IMG/VR virus record: IMGVR_UViG_2671181064_000008
Length of the DNA stretch: 4,370 bases
Origin: a virus
Taxonomy: Duplodnaviria > Heunggongvirae > Uroviricota > Caudoviricetes
Direction: 5' to 3' (one strand)
Shown here piece by piece: positions 1 to 4,370 of this stretch. The translations under genes and the position numbers were made by a program. Below the pieces are notes generated by a model. That model was given only the letters and a program-made list of their open reading frames with translations. It did not search any database and was not told where the DNA came from. Position 1 is the first letter of the stretch. Each line of letters opens with the position of its first letter.

Positions 1-41
1 GCTTTGAACTCTTTAGAGTAACGTTGGGTTTTTCTGCTCAT
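1..41 (-). CDS. IS3-family transposase OrfA, N-terminal fragment (partial, runs off the window)
   Basis: Minus-strand ATG at 41..39 preceded by GAAGGAG with a 6-nt spacer. Translation MSRKTQRYSKEFK... matches my recollection of the IS600 OrfA N-terminus. Confidence 0.6.
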   Translation of the reverse strand, partial: MSRKTQRYSKEFK

Positions 42-105
42 TATTAGCTCCTTCTGATGCCATTCTATTTCAGGAAGGAGTGTCCGTTAAACTCAGGCTA
101 CCTCA
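1..105 (-). mobile_element. Left end of an IS3-family insertion sequence (IS600-like): terminal inverted repeat, 5' leader and start of orfA; the element continues beyond the window start
   Basis: Reverse complement of 105..77 is TGAGGTAGCCTGAGTTTAACGGACACTCC: it starts with TGA and has GGACAC at positions 21-26, the same layout as the IS3 left inverted repeat. A minus-strand ORF starts just inside it. The exact boundary at 105 is inferred from this motif. Confidence 0.7.
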
Positions 106-161
106 GGTTATTCGCTTCTGGGCATGGGCGGATCAACAAATGATAGACGGTAATGCAGATT

Positions 162-180
162 GTAACGCTCGCGGCGTTAC
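162..180. promoter_or_regulatory. 19-bp dyad GTAACGC-N5-GCGTTAC (iteron/operator-like site A)
   Basis: Exact 7-bp inverted arms gtaacgc (162-168) and gcgttac (174-180). The same architecture recurs at 371-389. Confidence 0.45.
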
Positions 181-370
181 AAAAAGTGCAATAGATCGCA
201 TCACTTTTATGTCTGGTTTTGCTGATGCGTTAATTCAGGTTGGATGGCTGGTCGAAAATGACGGAGGGCTTTCTCTACCTAACTTTGAACGTCATAACGG
301 AAAAAGCTCTAAAAAAAACGGGCGGTTACAAACGAGCGAGTAACAAAAATACGCGAACTGAAACGAAAAG

Positions 371-389
371 GTAACGCTGCCAGCGTTAC
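371..389. promoter_or_regulatory. 19-bp dyad GTAACGC-N5-GCGTTAC (iteron/operator-like site B); arms extend to 9 bp (GTAACGCTG / CAGCGTTAC)
   Basis: Exact inverted arms at 371-377 and 383-389. An extra GCGTTAC half-site sits at 406-412 and a GTTAC/GTAAC pair at 325-344. Confidence 0.45.
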
Positions 390-414
390 ACAAACGGATC
401 AAAAAGCGTTACCA

Positions 415-434
415 GAGGAAGAGGAAGAGGAAGA
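415..434 (+). repeat. (GAGGAA)x3 hexanucleotide tandem repeat encoding a Glu6 acidic linker in the initiator
   Basis: gaggaagaggaagaggaaga read directly; translates EEEEEED in frame 1. Confidence 0.8.
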
Positions 435-788
435 TCTAAATACTGATCTCCCCCTCGCCAAAAACGAGCGTCTAAAAAATTCGAGCCGGAGGCTATTGAG
501 CTGCCCGATTGGTTGCCGGAAACACTCTGGCATGAGTGGGTCCGGTTCAGACAGGCATTGCGAAAACCGATTCGAACGGAGCAGGGCGCTAACGGGGCGA
601 TACGGGAACTGGAAAAATTCCGTCAGCAGGGTTTTACACCTGAGCAGGTGATTCGACACAGCATCGCCAATGAATACCAGGGCCTGTTCGCGCCGAAAGG
701 TGTTCGGCCTGAGACGTTGCTCCGACAGGTTAACACCGTCTCGTTGCCGGACAGTGCGATCCCGCCAGGCTTCAGGGGGTAACGGACC

Positions 789-1230
789 ATGAAAAATATT
801 GCGACAGGCGGCGTTCTGGAACGCATCCGCCGACTGACCCCGCCACATGTAACCGCCCCATTCAGAACGGTAGCGGAGTGGCGCGAGTGGCAACTTGCTG
901 AAGGCCAGAAACGTAGCGAGGAGATCAACCGCCTGAATCGCCAGTTGCGGGTGGAAAAAATTCTGAATCGCTCAGGCATCCAGCCGTTGCACCGTAAATG
1001 CTCGTTTGCGAATTACCAGGTGCAGAACGACGGCCAGCGATACGCGTTAAGCCAGGCGAAATCCATCGCCGATGAACTGATGACCGGGTGTACAAATTTT
1101 GCGTTCAGCGGAAAACCTGGTACCGGGAAGAATCACTTAGCGGCAGCTATCGGGAATCGCCTGCTGAAAGACGGTCAGACAGTGATTGTGGTTACCGTGG
1201 CTGATGTTATGAGCGCCCTGCACGCCAGCT
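789..1230 (+). CDS. DnaC-like helicase loader (AAA+ ATPase; phage P-equivalent), N-terminal about 147 codons only; 3' part absent at the N run
   Basis: Translation MKNIATGG...NRSGIQPLHRKCSFANY...FSGKPGTGKNHLAAAIGNRLL...VTVADVMSALHAS aligns with E. coli DnaC (NRSGIRPLHQNCSFENY, FSGKPGTGKNHLAAAI Walker A, ITVADIMSAMKDT). ATG at 789 follows the upstream stop (780-782) with a G-rich stretch 9 nt upstream. No Walker B or sensor region in any frame after the N run. Confidence 0.8.
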
Positions 1231-1271
1231 NNNNNNNNNNNNNNNNNNNNNNNNNNNNNNNNNNNNNNNNN
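1231..1271. other. Run of 41 N (masked or gap); content unknown
   Basis: Read directly. Confidence 1.
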
Positions 1272-1287
1272 AGTTTCAGGAGGATTT

Positions 1288-1710
1288 ATGGCGAAACCTT
1301 TTACTCCCGAACAGCGGGAAGAACTGAAGACGCGAATTGTGGAACTCGTGCATCAGGACGGTCGGGTCACGATTCGGCAGTTGTCAGATGAAACAGGTAT
1401 CAGTCGTGCGTCTGTCGGTCGCTTATGCATAGAACTGGTCGCAAGTGGTGATGTATATAATTCTGGCTACGGCTTATTCCCGTCTGAACAGGCTCGCAAG
1501 GACTGGCAAAGCGCCCGCAAAAAACTCTCGAGAGTAAAGGTGAGGAAACCGGTTGTTGTTGATCCGGACCTTATCTGGTCATTACCTGACGGAGAAATAC
1601 GCCGCTACGACAGGCGCCTGAATATAATCTGTCGCGAGTGCCGGAAGAGCGAAGCTATGCAGCGTGTACTGGCTTTCTATCAGGGTAATTTTCAGGAGGC
1701 GATACTGTGA
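1288..1710 (+). CDS. ren: Ren-like protein (homolog of phage lambda Ren, Rex-exclusion resistance); HTH-like N-terminus, 140 aa
   Basis: AGGAGG at 1278-1283, 4 nt before ATG 1288. C-terminal ...ICRECRKSEAMQRVLAFYQG resembles lambda Ren ...FKECRQSAAMKRVLAVYGV as I recall it. The N-terminal region resembles a helix-turn-helix. Its position directly after the P-equivalent gene matches the lambda O-P-ren order. Confidence 0.55.
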   Translation: MAKPFTPEQREELKTRIVELVHQDGRVTIRQLSDETGISRASVGRLCIELVASGDVYNSGYGLFPSEQARKDWQSARKKLSRVKVRKPVVVDPDLIWSLPDGEIRRYDRRLNIICRECRKSEAMQRVLAFYQGNFQEAIL

Positions 1711-2124
1711 ATGAAATTAGCTATCAGGCTTCAATTACCGCTGGCATTCGCATCAAAGGAGAGGAGCATGGAAATAAAACCAGAAGATGAGTTAAGCAAT
1801 ATCGTTTTATTTCCGGTAAAAGAGGATGACCCTCGTAATCAGGTTAATTTTCTTTATGAGCCATCGGAAAGACCATATTGCCATCACGCCTCTGTACGGG
1901 TTGACGAAAAAGAGCGTCAGGTCCGCTGTAAAATCTGCGGTGCGGTTGTGGAGCCGTTTGACTGGATGCTCTCTGTGGCAAAAAGAGAAACCAGACTGGC
2001 AGATGATGTAAGGCTATTGCGCCAGGAGGAACAGGAAAGGCGGAGAAATATAGAAAAGCTGATACAGATTGAGCGTAACGCGAAAGCGCGGATACGCAGG
2101 GCGACAAAATCCAGAACTGAATAA
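1711..2124 (+). CDS. Hypothetical small protein with a Cys/His cluster (C-H-H ... C-x2-C, zinc-ribbon-like) and a basic coiled-coil C-terminus; alternative start at 1768
   Basis: ATG 1711 overlaps the ren-like stop (TGAATG) with AGGAGG 11 nt upstream. In-frame ATG 1768 has a stronger RBS (GGAGAGGAG, about 5-nt spacer) and would give 118 aa. Motif YCHHASV...RCKICG, then an Arg/Glu-rich tail. No recognisable family. Confidence 0.5.
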   Translation: MKLAIRLQLPLAFASKERSMEIKPEDELSNIVLFPVKEDDPRNQVNFLYEPSERPYCHHASVRVDEKERQVRCKICGAVVEPFDWMLSVAKRETRLADDVRLLRQEEQERRRNIEKLIQIERNAKARIRRATKSRTE

Positions 2125-2271
2125 TTAAATTTAGCACTGTTAAAAATTTAATCCTTAACCGGAGGGATTTCTGCACCCTCAAATCATCAGGAGACCACCC
2201 GAAAGGGCGGGGAGCAGTCACACATCTGTTTCCGATAGCCCCGTTCTAATGCTACACTCTTTGATATTTTT

Positions 2272-2958
2272 ATGACCCCAATAAACATATTTATGACAGT
2301 TGCTGATTTCAAACGGCCCAAATTGGAGCTCCCAAACGGGGCAAACAAACTACTACTGCACTCTTGCTGTGCTCCATGTTCCGGTGAGGTGATGGAGGCG
2401 CTTCAGGCCTCGGGAATCGACTACACCATCTTTTTCTACAACCCGAACATTCATCCTCAGAAAGAGTATTTAATTCGTAAGGATGAGAATATTCGCTTTG
2501 CTGAACAACACGGCGTGCCGTTTATTGATGCTGATTACGACACAGACAACTGGTTTGAACGAGCCAAAGGAATGGAATGGGAGCCCGAACGAGGGATCCG
2601 TTGCACCATGTGTTTTGACATGCGTTTTGAGCGGACAGCGCTGTACGCCGCTGAAAATGGTTTCAGTGTGATCAGCAGTTCACTGGGCATTTCACGCTGG
2701 AAAAATATGCAGCAGGTTAACGACTGTGGGCGGCGAGCCGTCGCGCATTATCCGGGCATGGTGTACTGGGATTATAACTGGCGCAAGCAGGGCGGCTCGT
2801 CCCGTATGATTGAAATCAGCAAGCGCGAAAAATTCTATCAGCAGGAATATTGTGGCTGTGTGTATTCTCTGCGCGATACCAATCTACACCGCAAATCTCA
2901 GGGACGCCCTCTTATCAAAATTGGTCAACTCCACTACGGTAAAGAAGAGAAGGAGTGA
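2272..2958 (+). CDS. queH: Epoxyqueuosine reductase QueH-like protein (DUF208 family, Fe-S enzyme of queuosine tRNA modification)
   Basis: Translation contains [39 protein letters not shown], the conserved Cys motifs and overall pattern I recall for QueH/DUF208. Start is uncertain (ATG 2272 or 2293), neither with a clear Shine-Dalgarno. Confidence 0.75.
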
Positions 2959-3117
2959 TTTTATGGGGCACCTTTCTGATTGATTTCATATTGGCGAGGT
3001 AAGTAGAATGACTGCGGGTGCTTGAGGCTATCTGCTTCAGGCATGAACACCAAAAGGCAGATAGAGAAAAGCCCCAGTTAACATTACGCGTCCGGCAAGA
3101 CGCTTAACATTAATCTG

Positions 3118-3434
3118 NNNNNNNNNNNNNNNNNNNNNNNNNNNNNNNNNNNNNNNNNNNNNNNNNNNNNNNNNNNNNNNNNNNNNNNNNNNNNNNNNNN
3201 NNNNNNNNNNNNNNNNNNNNNNNNNNNNNNNNNNNNNNNNNNNNNNNNNNNNNNNNNNNNNNNNNNNNNNNNNNNNNNNNNNNNNNNNNNNNNNNNNNNN
3301 NNNNNNNNNNNNNNNNNNNNNNNNNNNNNNNNNNNNNNNNNNNNNNNNNNNNNNNNNNNNNNNNNNNNNNNNNNNNNNNNNNNNNNNNNNNNNNNNNNNN
3401 NNNNNNNNNNNNNNNNNNNNNNNNNNNNNNNNNN
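3118..3434. other. Run of 317 N (masked or gap); content unknown
   Basis: Read directly. Confidence 1.
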
Positions 3435-3457
3435 CATCCTCAACGCACCCGCACTTA

Positions 3458-3501
3458 ACCCGCCCATCGCTGTGATCTCTCAGCGTTTCGGCGGGTTTTT
3501 T
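3458..3501 (+). terminator. Compound rho-independent terminator (+ strand)
   Basis: Outer stem acccgcc (3458-3464) pairs with ggcgggt (3490-3496); inner stem cgctg (3468-3472) / cagcg (3481-3485); followed by a T run (3496-3501). T run lies 3' on the + strand only. Confidence 0.5.
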
Positions 3502-3521
3502 GTTGTTTATTTCCGGTGAAT

Positions 3522-3549
3522 TTGATTCGCGCACCTTCGCAGATAGAAT
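3522..3549 (+). promoter_or_regulatory. Candidate sigma70 promoter for the downstream small-ORF pair
   Basis: TTGATT (3522-3527), 16-bp spacer, TAGAAT (3544-3549); about 80 nt upstream of ATG 3631. Sequence-only prediction. Confidence 0.35.
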
Positions 3550-3630
3550 CGACTCACTTAAGTAGCGCGCAGGGAGAAGAGGGATGGACCCCGAACAGGG
3601 GAGAGCTATTTATCTGGAAGGATTCTGAAG

Positions 3631-3918
3631 ATGAAAATCGAAGAATTGCGTGAAATTTTTAGTGAAAATGGCCTCTATGCTGTGCGCGTTGAGAATGGAG
3701 CGATTGTCAGCCATTGCCGCATTAGATGTTTGCAATCTCAACAAAGGAAGAGCGGTGCTGTGTTATTTTATTTTTGTAATGGACTTCTGACGGACGGTTT
3801 TATTTTGCGTGAGGACGAATTTGTCACATCATTACGGGTTTTGAAAGAGATTGGTTTTAAGGCTGGTTTTCTGCTTTTGCTGAAGAATAAACTCATCTAC
3901 AATCTTGAGCAGGATTGA
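3631..3918 (+). CDS. Hypothetical protein, 95 aa, AT-rich, no recognised family
   Basis: ATG 3631 with GGAAGG 9 nt upstream; uninterrupted ORF; no competing ORF on either strand; downstream of the promoter-like element. Confidence 0.4.
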   Translation: MKIEELREIFSENGLYAVRVENGAIVSHCRIRCLQSQQRKSGAVLFYFCNGLLTDGFILREDEFVTSLRVLKEIGFKAGFLLLLKNKLIYNLEQD

Positions 3919-3956
3919 ACTCCTGCTGTGTAACACCGTGCCACCGGAGAAAGCCG

Positions 3957-4310
3957 ATGGCACATATACAACTGGTCAAACAAACCTCTTCCGGATTACT
4001 TCTCCCGGCGACGCCGGAGAGTTGCGATTTTCTGCATCAAATCAAAATAGGTGAGTGGATACACGCAGACTTTAAGCGTGTGTGTAACTACGCATTCCAC
4101 AAGCGTTTTTTCAAACTCCTGCAACTGGGTTTCGATTACTGGACTCCGGTCGGTGGGGCGATCACGCCTCGCGAACGAAAACTGGTGTCCGGTTTCGTTG
4201 ATTACCTGTGTGAATCAGTAGGCCGGGAACATACGCCAGCTCTGAGCGAAGCCGCAGAGCAATTGAGGTGTACTGGCAATAGCGGACACTACCATTTGTT
4301 CTTTTTTTAA
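3957..4310 (+). CDS. Hypothetical prophage protein, 117 aa as written; may be truncated by a frameshift in a T7 tract at its 3' end
   Basis: ATG 3957 with GGAG 7 nt upstream (the TTG at 3915 in the ORF track lacks an RBS). Ends TAA 4308-4310 immediately after T7 (4301-4307). One extra T would keep the frame open to the window end. Confidence 0.45.
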   Translation: MAHIQLVKQTSSGLLLPATPESCDFLHQIKIGEWIHADFKRVCNYAFHKRFFKLLQLGFDYWTPVGGAITPRERKLVSGFVDYLCESVGREHTPALSEAAEQLRCTGNSGHYHLFFF

Positions 4311-4370
4311 GCAGCCATCTGATGATATTTTTCCCTGAAGGCTGCCGGGGAGATATTCCCCAGACGAGAG

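What the first reader, a model, noticed from the sequence alone, without database searches (positions are those of the whole stretch)
3522..4370. Separately promoted pair of small unknown ORFs after the terminator
A sigma70-like promoter (TTGATT-16-TAGAAT) precedes two abutting ORFs of 95 and 117 aa. The first is AT-rich with no recognisable family, and its stop (3916-3918) lies 38 nt upstream of the second ORF's likely ATG at 3957. The arrangement is compatible with a small two-gene module such as a toxin-antitoxin or exclusion pair, or simply with nin-region genes of unknown function. A hairpin gcagcc...ggctgc (4311-4345) follows the second ORF.
Basis: inference. Interest (0 to 1): 0.4.

Follow-up and report, generated by a model that had tools for sequence, protein, structure and literature searches.

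The report
Prophage antirepressor gene rem plus IS600-truncated irsA
The two "unknown" ORFs are already-described lambdoid prophage genes: a frameshifted copy of rem, the small antirepressor that switches off DicA-type prophage repressors, followed by irsA/DUF1367, which an IS600 insertion cuts in half, so this is an ordinary decayed prophage remnant and not a toxin-antitoxin pair.

Summary

- **ORF1 (3631-3918)** belongs to the Rem family. It is 68% identical to E. coli K-12 Qin Rem, which has been shown experimentally to relieve DicA repression. This allele has lost one T (3867-3870), which replaces the canonical tail SAFAEE with 15 unrelated residues.
- **ORF2** is only the first 102 codons of a 199-codon DUF1367/irsA gene. 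From 4264 onward the sequence is an IS600 end. The last 15 codons, the stop codon and the "hairpin" at 4311-4345 all belong to IS600; the hairpin lies in the transposase coding sequence on the minus strand.
- **Known arrangement.** A small antirepressor gene followed by irsA occurs in Gifsy-1, Gifsy-2, SPN3UB and mEp237. There it follows a LexA box and a dinI homologue. Here it follows hok/sok (N-masked), and no LexA box is present.
- **The promoter is supported by comparison.** The -10 is invariant in eight aligned loci. Three unrelated upstream versions each keep a TTGAnn hexamer 16-18 bp away. The ~75-nt leader is nearly invariant.
- **No toxin, antitoxin or defence model matches either protein.**

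This is already known and of low interest. The one open point is what controls this LexA-independent rem promoter and leader, since rem's inducer is unknown.

The parts
1..105 (-). End of a first IS600 copy, interrupting the ydaU/O-like replication gene. Context: it is the left boundary of the prophage fragment.
   Evidence: 100% identical to the IS600 end in L010 4854-4959. Homology to the intact prophage L001 starts at window 105. In L026 an IS600 copy (genes 4707-5863, minus strand) occupies this position.
2980..3434 (+). hok/sok type I toxin-antitoxin locus, with 3118-3434 N-masked. This is the real toxin-antitoxin system of the neighbourhood and lies upstream of rem in every locus where that flank is readable.
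   Evidence: In the near-identical prophage L001, hokD is annotated at the masked position. Rfam sok RF01794 scores 117 bits at L001 4622-4797, equivalent to window ~3016-3191. A promoter-like site lies at 2980-3009. tblastn finds Hok upstream of rem in 16 of 16 readable loci.
3457..3501 (+). Intrinsic terminator: a hairpin at 3457-3497 with a 23-nt insert in its loop, then a T6 run at 3496-3501. It closes the hok transcript and precedes the rem promoter.
   Evidence: dG -22.8 kcal/mol, z -5.5, 0 of 200 shuffles as stable. The core ACCCGC-TTCG-GCGGGTTTTT is conserved in all rem loci. It also precedes the LexA-controlled dinI-antirepressor operons of SPN3UB and mEp237 and Gifsy-2.
3522..3549 (+). 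Sigma-70-type promoter of rem: -35 TTGATT at 3522-3527, 16-bp spacer, -10 TAGAAT at 3544-3549. No LexA box.
   Evidence: Called by the scan. ATAGAATC is invariant in 8 aligned loci. The homologous site is called in K-12 Qin as TTGAAG-18-TAGAAT and in Rac of strain 442/2 as TTGAGG-16-TAGAAT, although the spacer and -35 regions are unrelated in sequence. No CTGT-N8-ACAG lies nearby. No transcription start-site data were examined.
3557..3630 (+). Conserved rem leader (5' UTR) with the RBS GGAAGGA at 3616-3622. It is a candidate regulatory element of unknown function.
   Evidence: Nearly invariant in 8 loci, and more conserved than the coding sequence. RNAalifold gives a consensus structure with one compensatory pair, A-U to U-A, in 4 versus 4 sequences. 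The single-sequence fold is only z -1.8. No Rfam family matches. The mini-ORF from the ATG at 3584 is not conserved in frame (read directly).
3631..3918 (+). rem, encoding a Rem-family small antirepressor. This is a frameshift allele: the T4 run at 3867-3870 is one T short. The canonical frame would end at TAA 3888-3890, giving 86 aa ending in SAFAEE.
   Evidence: 68% identity over 80 aa to K-12 Rem, E 2e-34. phrog_340, E 6e-20. Precomputed Pfam PF27490 'Rem'. The +1 frame reads GFSAFAEE*. P0003 is the unshifted, otherwise identical 86-aa allele. The run-length difference is visible.
3908..3927 (+). Conserved hairpin between rem and the next gene (AGCAGGA-uugaac-UCCUGCU) with no U-run. Its role is unknown; it may be a processing or stability element.
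   Evidence: dG -11 kcal/mol, z -2.8. 100% of cells are paired in 4 distinct sequences, with 2 pairs changed on both sides; this is weak statistically, since 65 of 500 shuffles reach it.
3957..4263 (+). 5' half (codons 1-102 of 199) of irsA/DUF1367, with the RBS GGAGAA at 3946-3951. The gene is truncated by IS600.
   Evidence: PF07105, E 1e-46, covering profile positions 1-102 of 198. The intact 199-aa gene is present in L001. It is 53% identical to the Gifsy-2 irsA homologue STM1020. Homology to the intact prophage ends at 4263.
4264..4370 (-). End of a second IS600 copy, with the transposase on the minus strand.
   Evidence: Matches the annotated IS3-like element IS600 in 2887 of 5426 E. coli genomes. 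The minus strand of 4307-4369 translates to the OrfB C-terminus ...SRLGNISPAAFREKYHQMAA*. The gene at L026 10351-11169 (minus strand) carries rve domains.

Best explanation
The region is the antirepressor module of a Rac/Qin-type lambdoid prophage that has decayed in an IS600-rich Escherichia/Shigella genome.

**Inferred mechanism**
1. A sigma-70 promoter sits just after the terminator that ends the hok/sok locus. It transcribes a conserved ~75-nt leader, then rem, then irsA.
2. Rem is a small protein (86 aa in its canonical form). It inactivates the prophage's short, non-cleavable DicA-type repressor. This derepresses the early promoters.
3. This is the antirepressor route of prophage induction known from Gifsy prophages and from K-12 Qin.
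4. Here the module lacks the dinI gene and the LexA operator that couple the Gifsy operon to the SOS response. Its input signal is therefore different and remains unknown.
5. irsA/DUF1367 is a co-transcribed passenger of unknown role.

**State in this genome**
- rem carries a C-terminal frameshift that leaves the conserved core intact.
- irsA is cut after codon 102 by IS600.
- In genomes with the same junction (two of three contexts read; see the Against line), everything downstream (Q, lysis and morphogenesis genes) has been deleted.

**Shown versus inferred**
- Shown: family identities, the IS600 junction, the frameshift, the conservation of the promoter and leader, and the absence of a LexA box.
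- Inferred from homology: the antirepressor activity of this allele, promoter activity, and co-transcription of rem and irsA.
For: **ORF1 and its target**
- ORF1 against K-12 Rem: 68% identity over 80 aa, E 2e-34. It also matches phrog_340 and PF27490 'Rem'.
- Rem increases dicBp expression 165-fold by relieving DicA repression. The authors found it by searching from the Gifsy and Fels-1 antirepressors (PMC10448788).
- A 135-aa DicA-like repressor, 62% identical to K-12 DicA, is present together with Cro-like and YdaT genes. This holds in the intact sister prophage and in genomes carrying the exact same IS600 junction.

**ORF2 and the gene arrangement**
- ORF2 matches DUF1367 and is 53% identical to the Gifsy-2 irsA homologue.
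- Gifsy prophages carry a LexA-regulated operon of dinI, antirepressor and irsA (PMC3121763). The same order, with perfect LexA boxes, was seen in Gifsy-1, Gifsy-2, SPN3UB and mEp237.
- The bridging protein P0171 is 35% identical to Rem (E 2e-11) and 35% identical to the SPN3UB gene that lies between dinI and irsA (E 2e-11).

**Promoter, leader and decay**
- Promoter and leader conservation.
- IS600 junction.
- Frameshift.
- No toxin, antitoxin or defence model matches either protein.
Against: - No expression or transcription start-site data were examined, so the promoter is supported by comparison only. A single 9-of-12 match is at chance level.
- Rem shows no significant direct similarity to GftA by BLASTP, hhalign or hmmsearch. 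The link to the Gifsy-type antirepressors rests on one bridging sequence, on gene position, and on the published PSI-BLAST chain.
- The frameshifted tail may abolish activity.
- How Rem relieves DicA repression is described as unknown in PMC11430063. Direct binding to the repressor has been shown only for the Gifsy proteins.
- The Rem structural model is of moderate quality (pLDDT 72) and has no PDB neighbour.
- The deletion of late genes is not uniform among genomes sharing the junction. Of the three distinct downstream contexts read, two (L026 and L029; L027 is the same as L026 on that side) have the IS600 followed by an integrase fragment and host mod/gal genes. In the third (L028) it is followed by DNA of another prophage.
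Confidence: 0.82

Rival explanations
1. The two ORFs form a toxin-antitoxin or superinfection-exclusion pair.
For: The genes are small, adjacent and separately promoted. One phage record labels Rem as 'Antitoxin Rem'. Ectopic Rem is growth-inhibitory in K-12 (PMC10448788).
Against: Rem toxicity in K-12 disappears in a dicB dicF double mutant or a Qin deletion, so it results from derepression and not from a toxin activity. No Pfam, NCBIfam or PADLOC toxin, antitoxin or defence model matches. The partner gene is not conserved: it is DUF1367 in some loci and a small ORF plus YdfU/DUF968 in others. ORF2 is a truncated gene here. Non-polar irsA deletions had no effect on Gifsy induction.
Confidence: 0.03
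2. The module is dead in this genome. The frameshift inactivates Rem and IS600 inactivates irsA, so nothing here functions and the sequence is only a relic.
For: The T-run deletion replaces the conserved tail SAF(E/S)(D/E)E. irsA is truncated at codon 102. IS600 copies bound the fragment on both sides, and the late genes are deleted in two of the three downstream contexts read among genomes with the same junction. Similar frameshifted alleles occur in another rem lineage, P0044 and P0045.
Against: The frameshift falls after the last strongly conserved residues (...KAGF). In distant relatives the tail beyond AG[LF] is variable. The allele is carried by many genomes, with the promoter, leader, RBS and cognate repressor all intact. 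No test of function is available.
Confidence: 0.35
3. There is no dedicated promoter. The TTGATT-16-TAGAAT match is a coincidence, and rem is expressed only by read-through from the early-right promoter, as lambda nin genes are.
For: The scan finds as many such sites in shuffled sequence. The genes lie in the early-right operon, in the same orientation as the replication genes.
Against: The -10 is invariant in eight aligned loci (mutated only in the degenerate locus L017) and all three unrelated upstream versions keep a TTGAnn hexamer at 16-18 bp. Sequence conservation restarts exactly at the -10 and the predicted start site. A strong terminator sits 20 nt upstream. The homologous operons of Gifsy, SPN3UB and mEp237 have their own LexA-controlled promoter at the same place, after the same terminator. 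An antirepressor must be expressible while the early promoters are repressed.
Confidence: 0.15
4. ORF2 (DUF1367/IrsA) is a NinB/Orf-type recombination mediator, so the pair is an antirepressor gene followed by the first recombination gene of the nin region, with no functional link between them.
For: phrog_319, which covers DUF1367 end to end, is labelled NinB/Orf, and many phage records copy that label. The gene occupies the NinB position upstream of NinG or RusA and Q. DUF1367 occurs without any antirepressor-like neighbour in Pseudomonas D3 and in Vibrio phages.
Against: Lambda NinB and YbcN belong to a different PHROG, phrog_72. BLASTP, hhalign and Pfam scans show no significant similarity, and there is no PDB sequence match. 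The AlphaFold model was too poor to test the fold (pLDDT 47).
Confidence: 0.3

Closest known systems
Rem of the E. coli K-12 Qin cryptic prophage (b1561), antirepressor of DicA (Ragunathan et al. 2023, J Bacteriol, PMC10448788)
   Same: 68% identical over the conserved 80 residues. Same neighbours upstream: hokD, terminator, promoter and leader. Same type of cognate repressor: 135 aa, 62% identical to DicA.
   Different: The C-terminal tail is altered by a 1-nt deletion, giving 95 aa instead of 83-86. The downstream gene is irsA/DUF1367 instead of a short ORF plus ydfU. The region between the terminator and the -10 is unrelated in sequence. Activity of this allele has not been tested.
LexA-controlled dinI-antirepressor-irsA operon of Salmonella Gifsy-1 and Gifsy-2 (Lemire, Figueroa-Bossi and Bossi 2011, PMC3121763)
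   Same: A small gene (73-86 aa) lies immediately upstream of an irsA/DUF1367 homologue that is 53% identical. The operon follows the same type of terminator and lies in the nin region ahead of Q. Its own promoter lies outside the immunity region. The target is a short, non-cleavable repressor of the DicA/GfoR type.
   Different: No dinI gene and no LexA box; hok/sok lies upstream instead. Rem and GftA show no significant direct sequence similarity. The input signal is therefore not the SOS response through LexA.
DUF1367 (PF07105) / IrsA family
   Same: The first 102 residues match the family profile with E 1e-46.
   Different: The C-terminal 97 residues are missing and replaced by 15 residues read from IS600.
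IS600 (IS3 family)
   Same: Positions 4264-4370 and 1-105 are 98-100% identical to IS600 ends.
   Different: Only the two ends of the element fall inside the window.

Membership tests
Rem family (Pfam PF27490, phrog_340) | Significant sequence similarity to K-12 Rem and to the family profile | tested here: met
   BLASTP gives 68% identity over 80 aa, E 2e-34. phrog_340, E 6e-20. PF27490 is recorded for this exact protein. The local Pfam copy lacks this model.
Rem family (Pfam PF27490, phrog_340) | Conserved core motif GF-x-LR-x-(D/G/N)EFVTSL-x(2)-L-x-E-x(3)-AG | tested here: met
   DGFILREDEFVTSLRVLKEIGFKAG is present. It aligns with near and distant members.
Rem family (Pfam PF27490, phrog_340) | Canonical length (82-87 aa) with the C-terminal tail SAF(E/S)(D/E)E | tested here: not met
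   A 1-nt deletion in the T run at 3867-3870 gives ...GFLLLLKNKLIYNLEQD (95 aa). The canonical tail is readable in the +1 frame.
Rem family (Pfam PF27490, phrog_340) | A cognate short DicA-type repressor in the same prophage | tested here: met
   The repressor is not inside the window. A 135-aa HTH_3 repressor, 62% identical to DicA, lies about 6 kb upstream in genomes with the identical junction and in the sister prophage.
Rem family (Pfam PF27490, phrog_340) | Antirepressor activity (relief of DicA repression) | not testable with these tools
   Shown only for K-12 Rem (PMC10448788).
Gifsy-type LexA-controlled antirepressor operon | Small antirepressor gene directly upstream of an irsA homologue, outside the immunity region | tested here: met
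   rem lies 38 nt upstream of irsA/DUF1367, which is 53% identical to STM1020.
Gifsy-type LexA-controlled antirepressor operon | LexA operator at the operon promoter | tested here: not met
   No CTGT-N8-ACAG with up to 2 mismatches lies at 3500-3630. No perfect box occurs upstream of rem in any rem locus; the only boxes in rem loci are two in L018, about 700 bp upstream and downstream of its rem fragment. Perfect boxes lie just upstream of dinI in Gifsy-1, Gifsy-2, SPN3UB and mEp237.
Gifsy-type LexA-controlled antirepressor operon | dinI homologue as the first gene | tested here: not met
   hokD/sok lies upstream instead.
Gifsy-type LexA-controlled antirepressor operon | Sequence homology of the antirepressor to GfoA/GftA | tested here: inconclusive
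   There is no direct signal to GftA. P0171 links Rem to the SPN3UB gene at the same position, at E 2e-11 each way in pairwise searches.
DUF1367 / IrsA (PF07105) | Full-length match to the 198-position profile | tested here: not met
   Only profile positions 1-102 are matched. The intact homologue matches 1-198. The gene is cut by IS600 at 4263/4264.
NinB/Orf recombination mediators (PF05772, phrog_72) | Sequence or profile similarity of DUF1367 to lambda NinB or YbcN | tested here: not met
   BLASTP E 0.23. hhalign probability below 1%. No member of a 10-sequence DUF1367 alignment hits PF05772 at E up to 10. The two groups are different PHROGs carrying the same label.
NinB/Orf recombination mediators (PF05772, phrog_72) | Orf fold | tested here: inconclusive
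   The AlphaFold model has pLDDT 47 and is unusable. There is no PDB sequence hit.
Toxin-antitoxin or anti-phage defence systems | Match of either protein to a known toxin, antitoxin or defence model | tested here: not met
   Pfam, PADLOC and NCBIfam give no match.
Toxin-antitoxin or anti-phage defence systems | Conserved co-occurrence of the two genes | tested here: not met
   rem is followed by DUF1367 in some lineages and by a small ORF plus YdfU/DUF968 in others. DUF1367 occurs without rem in D3 and in Vibrio phages.

The most novel reading that the evidence does not exclude
The invariant -10, the nearly invariant ~75-nt leader with its predicted stem structure around the Shine-Dalgarno sequence, and the hairpin after rem may together form a dedicated, LexA-independent control element. 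It would decide when the Rem antirepressor is made, and so would give DicA-type prophages an induction input other than the SOS response. The regulator would be unknown: a host protein or small RNA acting on the leader. The GGA-rich leader resembles CsrA sites by eye (RUACARGGAUGU SELEX consensus recalled from memory, not checked against a paper or tool), but GGA is not enriched over shuffled sequence (6 found versus 4.6 +/- 1.3).
Probability: 0.3. Interest if true: 0.45.

Novelty: already known. Interest (0 to 1): 0.15.

Why it matters
For the genome scan, this resolves an "unknown pair" into two named families plus an insertion sequence, and it removes a false toxin-antitoxin lead.

Biologically, the only part still open is regulation. 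Two papers state that the signal inducing rem is unknown (PMC10448788, PMC11430063). The comparison made here narrows where to look. Rem-type modules keep the terminator, promoter, antirepressor and irsA layout of the SOS-controlled Gifsy operon. They have lost dinI and the LexA box, and they carry a highly conserved leader instead. That gives a concrete fragment (window 3500-3640, or its K-12 equivalent) for reporter fusions and for regulator pull-downs.

Tried and rejected
**Structure and fold**
- The Rem model (pLDDT 72) had no PDB match better than E 0.4, so the fold gives no clue.
- Structure prediction of DUF1367 from a shallow alignment failed (pLDDT 47). No fold search was run on it.

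**My own assumptions that proved wrong or weak**
- I assumed DUF1367 was the same as YbcN, the DLP12 base-flipping, Orf-family protein. That is wrong: the two share no similarity, and YbcN matches NinB weakly.
- By eye, GftA and Rem seem to share NG-x-V-T...L-x-x-D-D/E. No statistic supports this.

**Regulatory sites searched for and not found**
- No LexA box lies near the rem promoter.
- I looked for the prophage's own operator palindromes in the rem upstream region: TGTTAG-N6-CTAACA in K-12 and CCTTAG-N6-CTAAGG here. None was found. Control by the prophage repressor, as for Fels-1 fsoA, is therefore not supported.
- The CsrA idea is not supported: GGA density in the leader is not above shuffles, and a literature search found nothing.
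- Rfam gave no match in 3435-4370 at E up to 1.
- A leader peptide starting at the ATG at 3584 was rejected because the frame is not conserved among loci.

**Family breadth**
- A profile search of 1.84 billion representative proteins found only 56 Rem-family members, mostly fragments. Deep alignments could not be built.
Full report
**What is in the window**

The window is the early-right (nin-type) region of a Rac/Qin-like lambdoid prophage. Reading left to right:
- a replication gene remnant;
- a DnaC-like gene;
- a DUF977 gene;
- a zinc-ribbon ORF;
- queH;
- an N-masked stretch;
- the two ORFs of the finding.

A near-identical intact prophage in E. coli FDAARGOS_944 (locus L001) matches window 105-1230, 1272-3117 and 3435-4263 at 98.9-99.9% identity. 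In that prophage the masked stretch is hokD, with an Rfam sok match just upstream. The genes after the finding are DUF1364, a DUF1133 Q-like antiterminator, tRNAs and lysis genes.

**Checking the observation**

The following points hold:
- The promoter-like site TTGATT-16-TAGAAT at 3522-3549 is called by the scan.
- The 95-aa ORF and the ORF running to the stop at 4308-4310 are real.
- The gap between them is exactly 38 nt, and ORF1 is AT-rich at 39.6% G+C.
- The upstream terminator is strong: dG -22.8 kcal/mol, z -5.5, followed by U6.

Homology to the intact prophage stops at 4263. Positions 4264-4370 match the annotated element IS600 in 2887 E. coli genomes. The minus strand of 4307-4369 encodes the C-terminus of the IS600 OrfB transposase. 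Three consequences follow:
- The "117-aa ORF" is 102 native codons plus 15 codons and a stop read from IS600.
- Pfam DUF1367 matches only profile positions 1-102 of 198, whereas the intact gene has 199 codons.
- The "hairpin" at 4311-4345 lies in transposase coding sequence and folds no better than shuffled sequence (z -0.97).

Window 1-105 is the end of a second IS600 copy.

**ORF1 is rem**

- tblastn against phage records finds genes annotated rem.
- BLASTP against K-12 Qin Rem gives 68% identity over 80 aa, E 2e-34.
- The protein matches phrog_340 and is filed under Pfam PF27490 'Rem'.

Ragunathan et al. 2023 (PMC10448788) studied K-12 Rem. They found that ectopic Rem raises dicBp expression 165-fold by relieving DicA repression. 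The resulting filamentation depends on DicB and DicF. They found Rem by PSI-BLAST from the Gifsy and Fels-1 antirepressors. They also state that the signal inducing rem is unknown, a point repeated in PMC11430063.

The cognate repressor type is present. A 135-aa HTH protein 62% identical to DicA lies in the sister prophage, next to Cro-like and YdaT genes. The same repressor is present in genomes carrying the identical IS600 junction.

The window allele is frameshifted. The T run at 3867-3870 is one base short, and the +1 frame reads the canonical ...GFSAFAEE*. An otherwise identical 86-aa protein exists (P0003). The shift falls after the conserved core, so whether activity is lost cannot be decided here.

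**ORF2 is irsA/DUF1367**

A GenBank record of a Rac prophage annotates the same gene order as dicA, dicC, ydaT ... mok/hok, rem, irsA, ybcO, q. Lemire et al. 2011 (PMC3121763) described a LexA-regulated operon in Gifsy prophages consisting of a dinI homologue, the antirepressor gene and an irsA homologue. They reported that non-polar irsA deletions did not affect induction.

I verified the following:
- The Gifsy-2 irsA homologue STM1020 is 53% identical to the intact DUF1367 protein of this prophage type.
- Gifsy-1, Gifsy-2, SPN3UB and mEp237 all have a terminator, then a LexA box, then dinI, a small gene and DUF1367.

Rem has no significant direct similarity to GftA. A 91-aa protein from the representative search, P0171, bridges the gap. 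It is 35% identical to Rem (E 2e-11) and 35% identical to the SPN3UB small gene at the same position (E 2e-11).

The PHROG label "NinB/Orf" for DUF1367 could not be substantiated:
- Lambda NinB and YbcN fall in a different PHROG.
- BLASTP, hhalign and Pfam scans were negative.
- The structural model was too poor to use.

**Is the pair a unit?**

Across the fetched loci that carry rem, hok lies upstream in every case where that flank is readable. The downstream gene varies. It is DUF1367 in the window lineage, in strain 13P484A and in Rac of strain 442/2. It is a short ORF plus YdfU/DUF968 in K-12 Qin, mEp460, PPompW and others.

The conserved block runs from the terminator to the start codon of whatever gene follows rem. 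This is typical of lambdoid mosaic junctions at gene boundaries. DUF1367 also occurs without any such neighbour in Pseudomonas D3 and in Vibrio phages. No toxin, antitoxin or defence model matches either protein. The toxin-antitoxin reading is rejected.

**The promoter**

Alone, the match is at chance level. Comparison supports it:
- In an alignment of eight loci, ATAGAATC is invariant.
- The stretch between the terminator's T-run and the -10 exists in three unrelated versions. Each has a TTGAnn hexamer at 16-18 bp.
- The scan calls the site independently in K-12 and in Rac of strain 442/2.
- Conservation restarts at the -10 and continues through a nearly invariant leader, which is more conserved than the coding sequence.

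RNAalifold predicts stems flanking the Shine-Dalgarno sequence, with one compensatory pair. A second conserved hairpin follows rem, with two compensatory pairs; this is weak statistically. There is no LexA box, and no copy of the prophage's own operator palindrome. It also makes biological sense: an antirepressor must be expressible while the early promoters are shut off.

**State of the module in this genome**

The exact 117-aa chimera is recorded in 521 blocks of the assembly collection. In two of the three distinct downstream contexts read (L026 and L029; L027 repeats L026 there), the second IS600 is followed by an integrase fragment and then the host genes modABC, acrZ, modEF and galETK. 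The Q, lysis and structural genes are therefore gone. In L028 the IS600 instead joins another prophage. This is a cryptic remnant of the kind common in IS600-rich Shigella and E. coli, and source names point to Shigella sonnei and S. flexneri.

**Verdict**

Both genes belong to described families, and the arrangement is a known one. The module differs from the Gifsy operon in lacking dinI and LexA control. The finding is ordinary and of low interest. The residual open question is what controls the conserved rem promoter and leader.

Noticed in passing
window 3867-3890: rem is a frameshift allele: a T4 run where other loci have T5 or CT4. The canonical tail SAFAEE and its stop codon are readable in the +1 frame. 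A different rem lineage also has frameshifted alleles with the same kind of tail (P0044 and P0045, ...LAFLLFQKNKLIYNLARG). This suggests recurrent slippage at this run, or selection against active Rem.
   Followed up: partly
window 1-105 and 4264-4370: The window is bounded by two IS600 copies in the same orientation. E. coli ECMA0423 and S. flexneri SFBU1023 (L010, L011) also have IS600 in the same DUF1367 gene, but 63 bp further downstream (intact-prophage L001 coordinates 5889-5892 versus 5829). That is an independent insertion.
   Followed up: partly
window 3557-3630: The rem leader is nearly invariant across prophages whose Rem proteins are only 63-80% identical. The predicted structure has stems flanking the Shine-Dalgarno sequence and one compensatory A-U to U-A change. 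No Rfam family matches.
   Followed up: partly
window 3908-3927: A conserved hairpin lies just after the canonical rem stop codon. It has compensatory changes at two pairs and no U-run. The RBS and ATGGCAC start of the following gene are conserved even where that gene differs.
   Followed up: partly
window 3457-3501; L019 10980-10999; L022 ~1240-1258; L023 ~1286-1304: The terminator ACCCGC-TTCG-GCGGG-T(n) that ends the hok locus is also the terminator in front of the LexA-controlled dinI-antirepressor-irsA operons of Gifsy-2, mEp237 and SPN3UB. The window version carries a 23-nt insert in its loop that forms an inner stem.
   Followed up: partly
window 2980-3434: A complete hok/sok type I toxin-antitoxin locus (sok RNA match and hokD gene) sits directly upstream and is mostly N-masked. 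Its promoter-like site at 2980-3009 uses the same hexamers as the rem promoter, TTGATT and TAGAAT.
   Followed up: partly
window 1231-1271 and 3118-3434: The N runs do not preserve length. 41 N replace about 303 nt at the end of the DnaC-like gene, and 317 N replace about 277 nt of hok/sok. Window coordinates therefore cannot be mapped linearly onto real genomes.
   Followed up: yes
window 2272-2958: An epoxyqueuosine reductase gene (QueH, PF02677, E 2e-65) is carried as a prophage cargo gene between the replication genes and hok/sok.
   Followed up: no
L018 1244-1259 and 2292-2307: The Escherichia albertii locus has only a 25-codon rem fragment. It has no hok upstream of the conserved terminator. 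It carries two perfect LexA boxes, one of them between the rem fragment and ydfU.
   Followed up: no
L003 4306-4651 (K-12 Qin, minus strand): The 346-nt "gap" between rem and ydfU in K-12 begins with the conserved RBS and an ATGGCACGC start. In PPompW this start opens an annotated 92-aa gene, so K-12 may hold an unannotated or decayed small ORF here.
   Followed up: no
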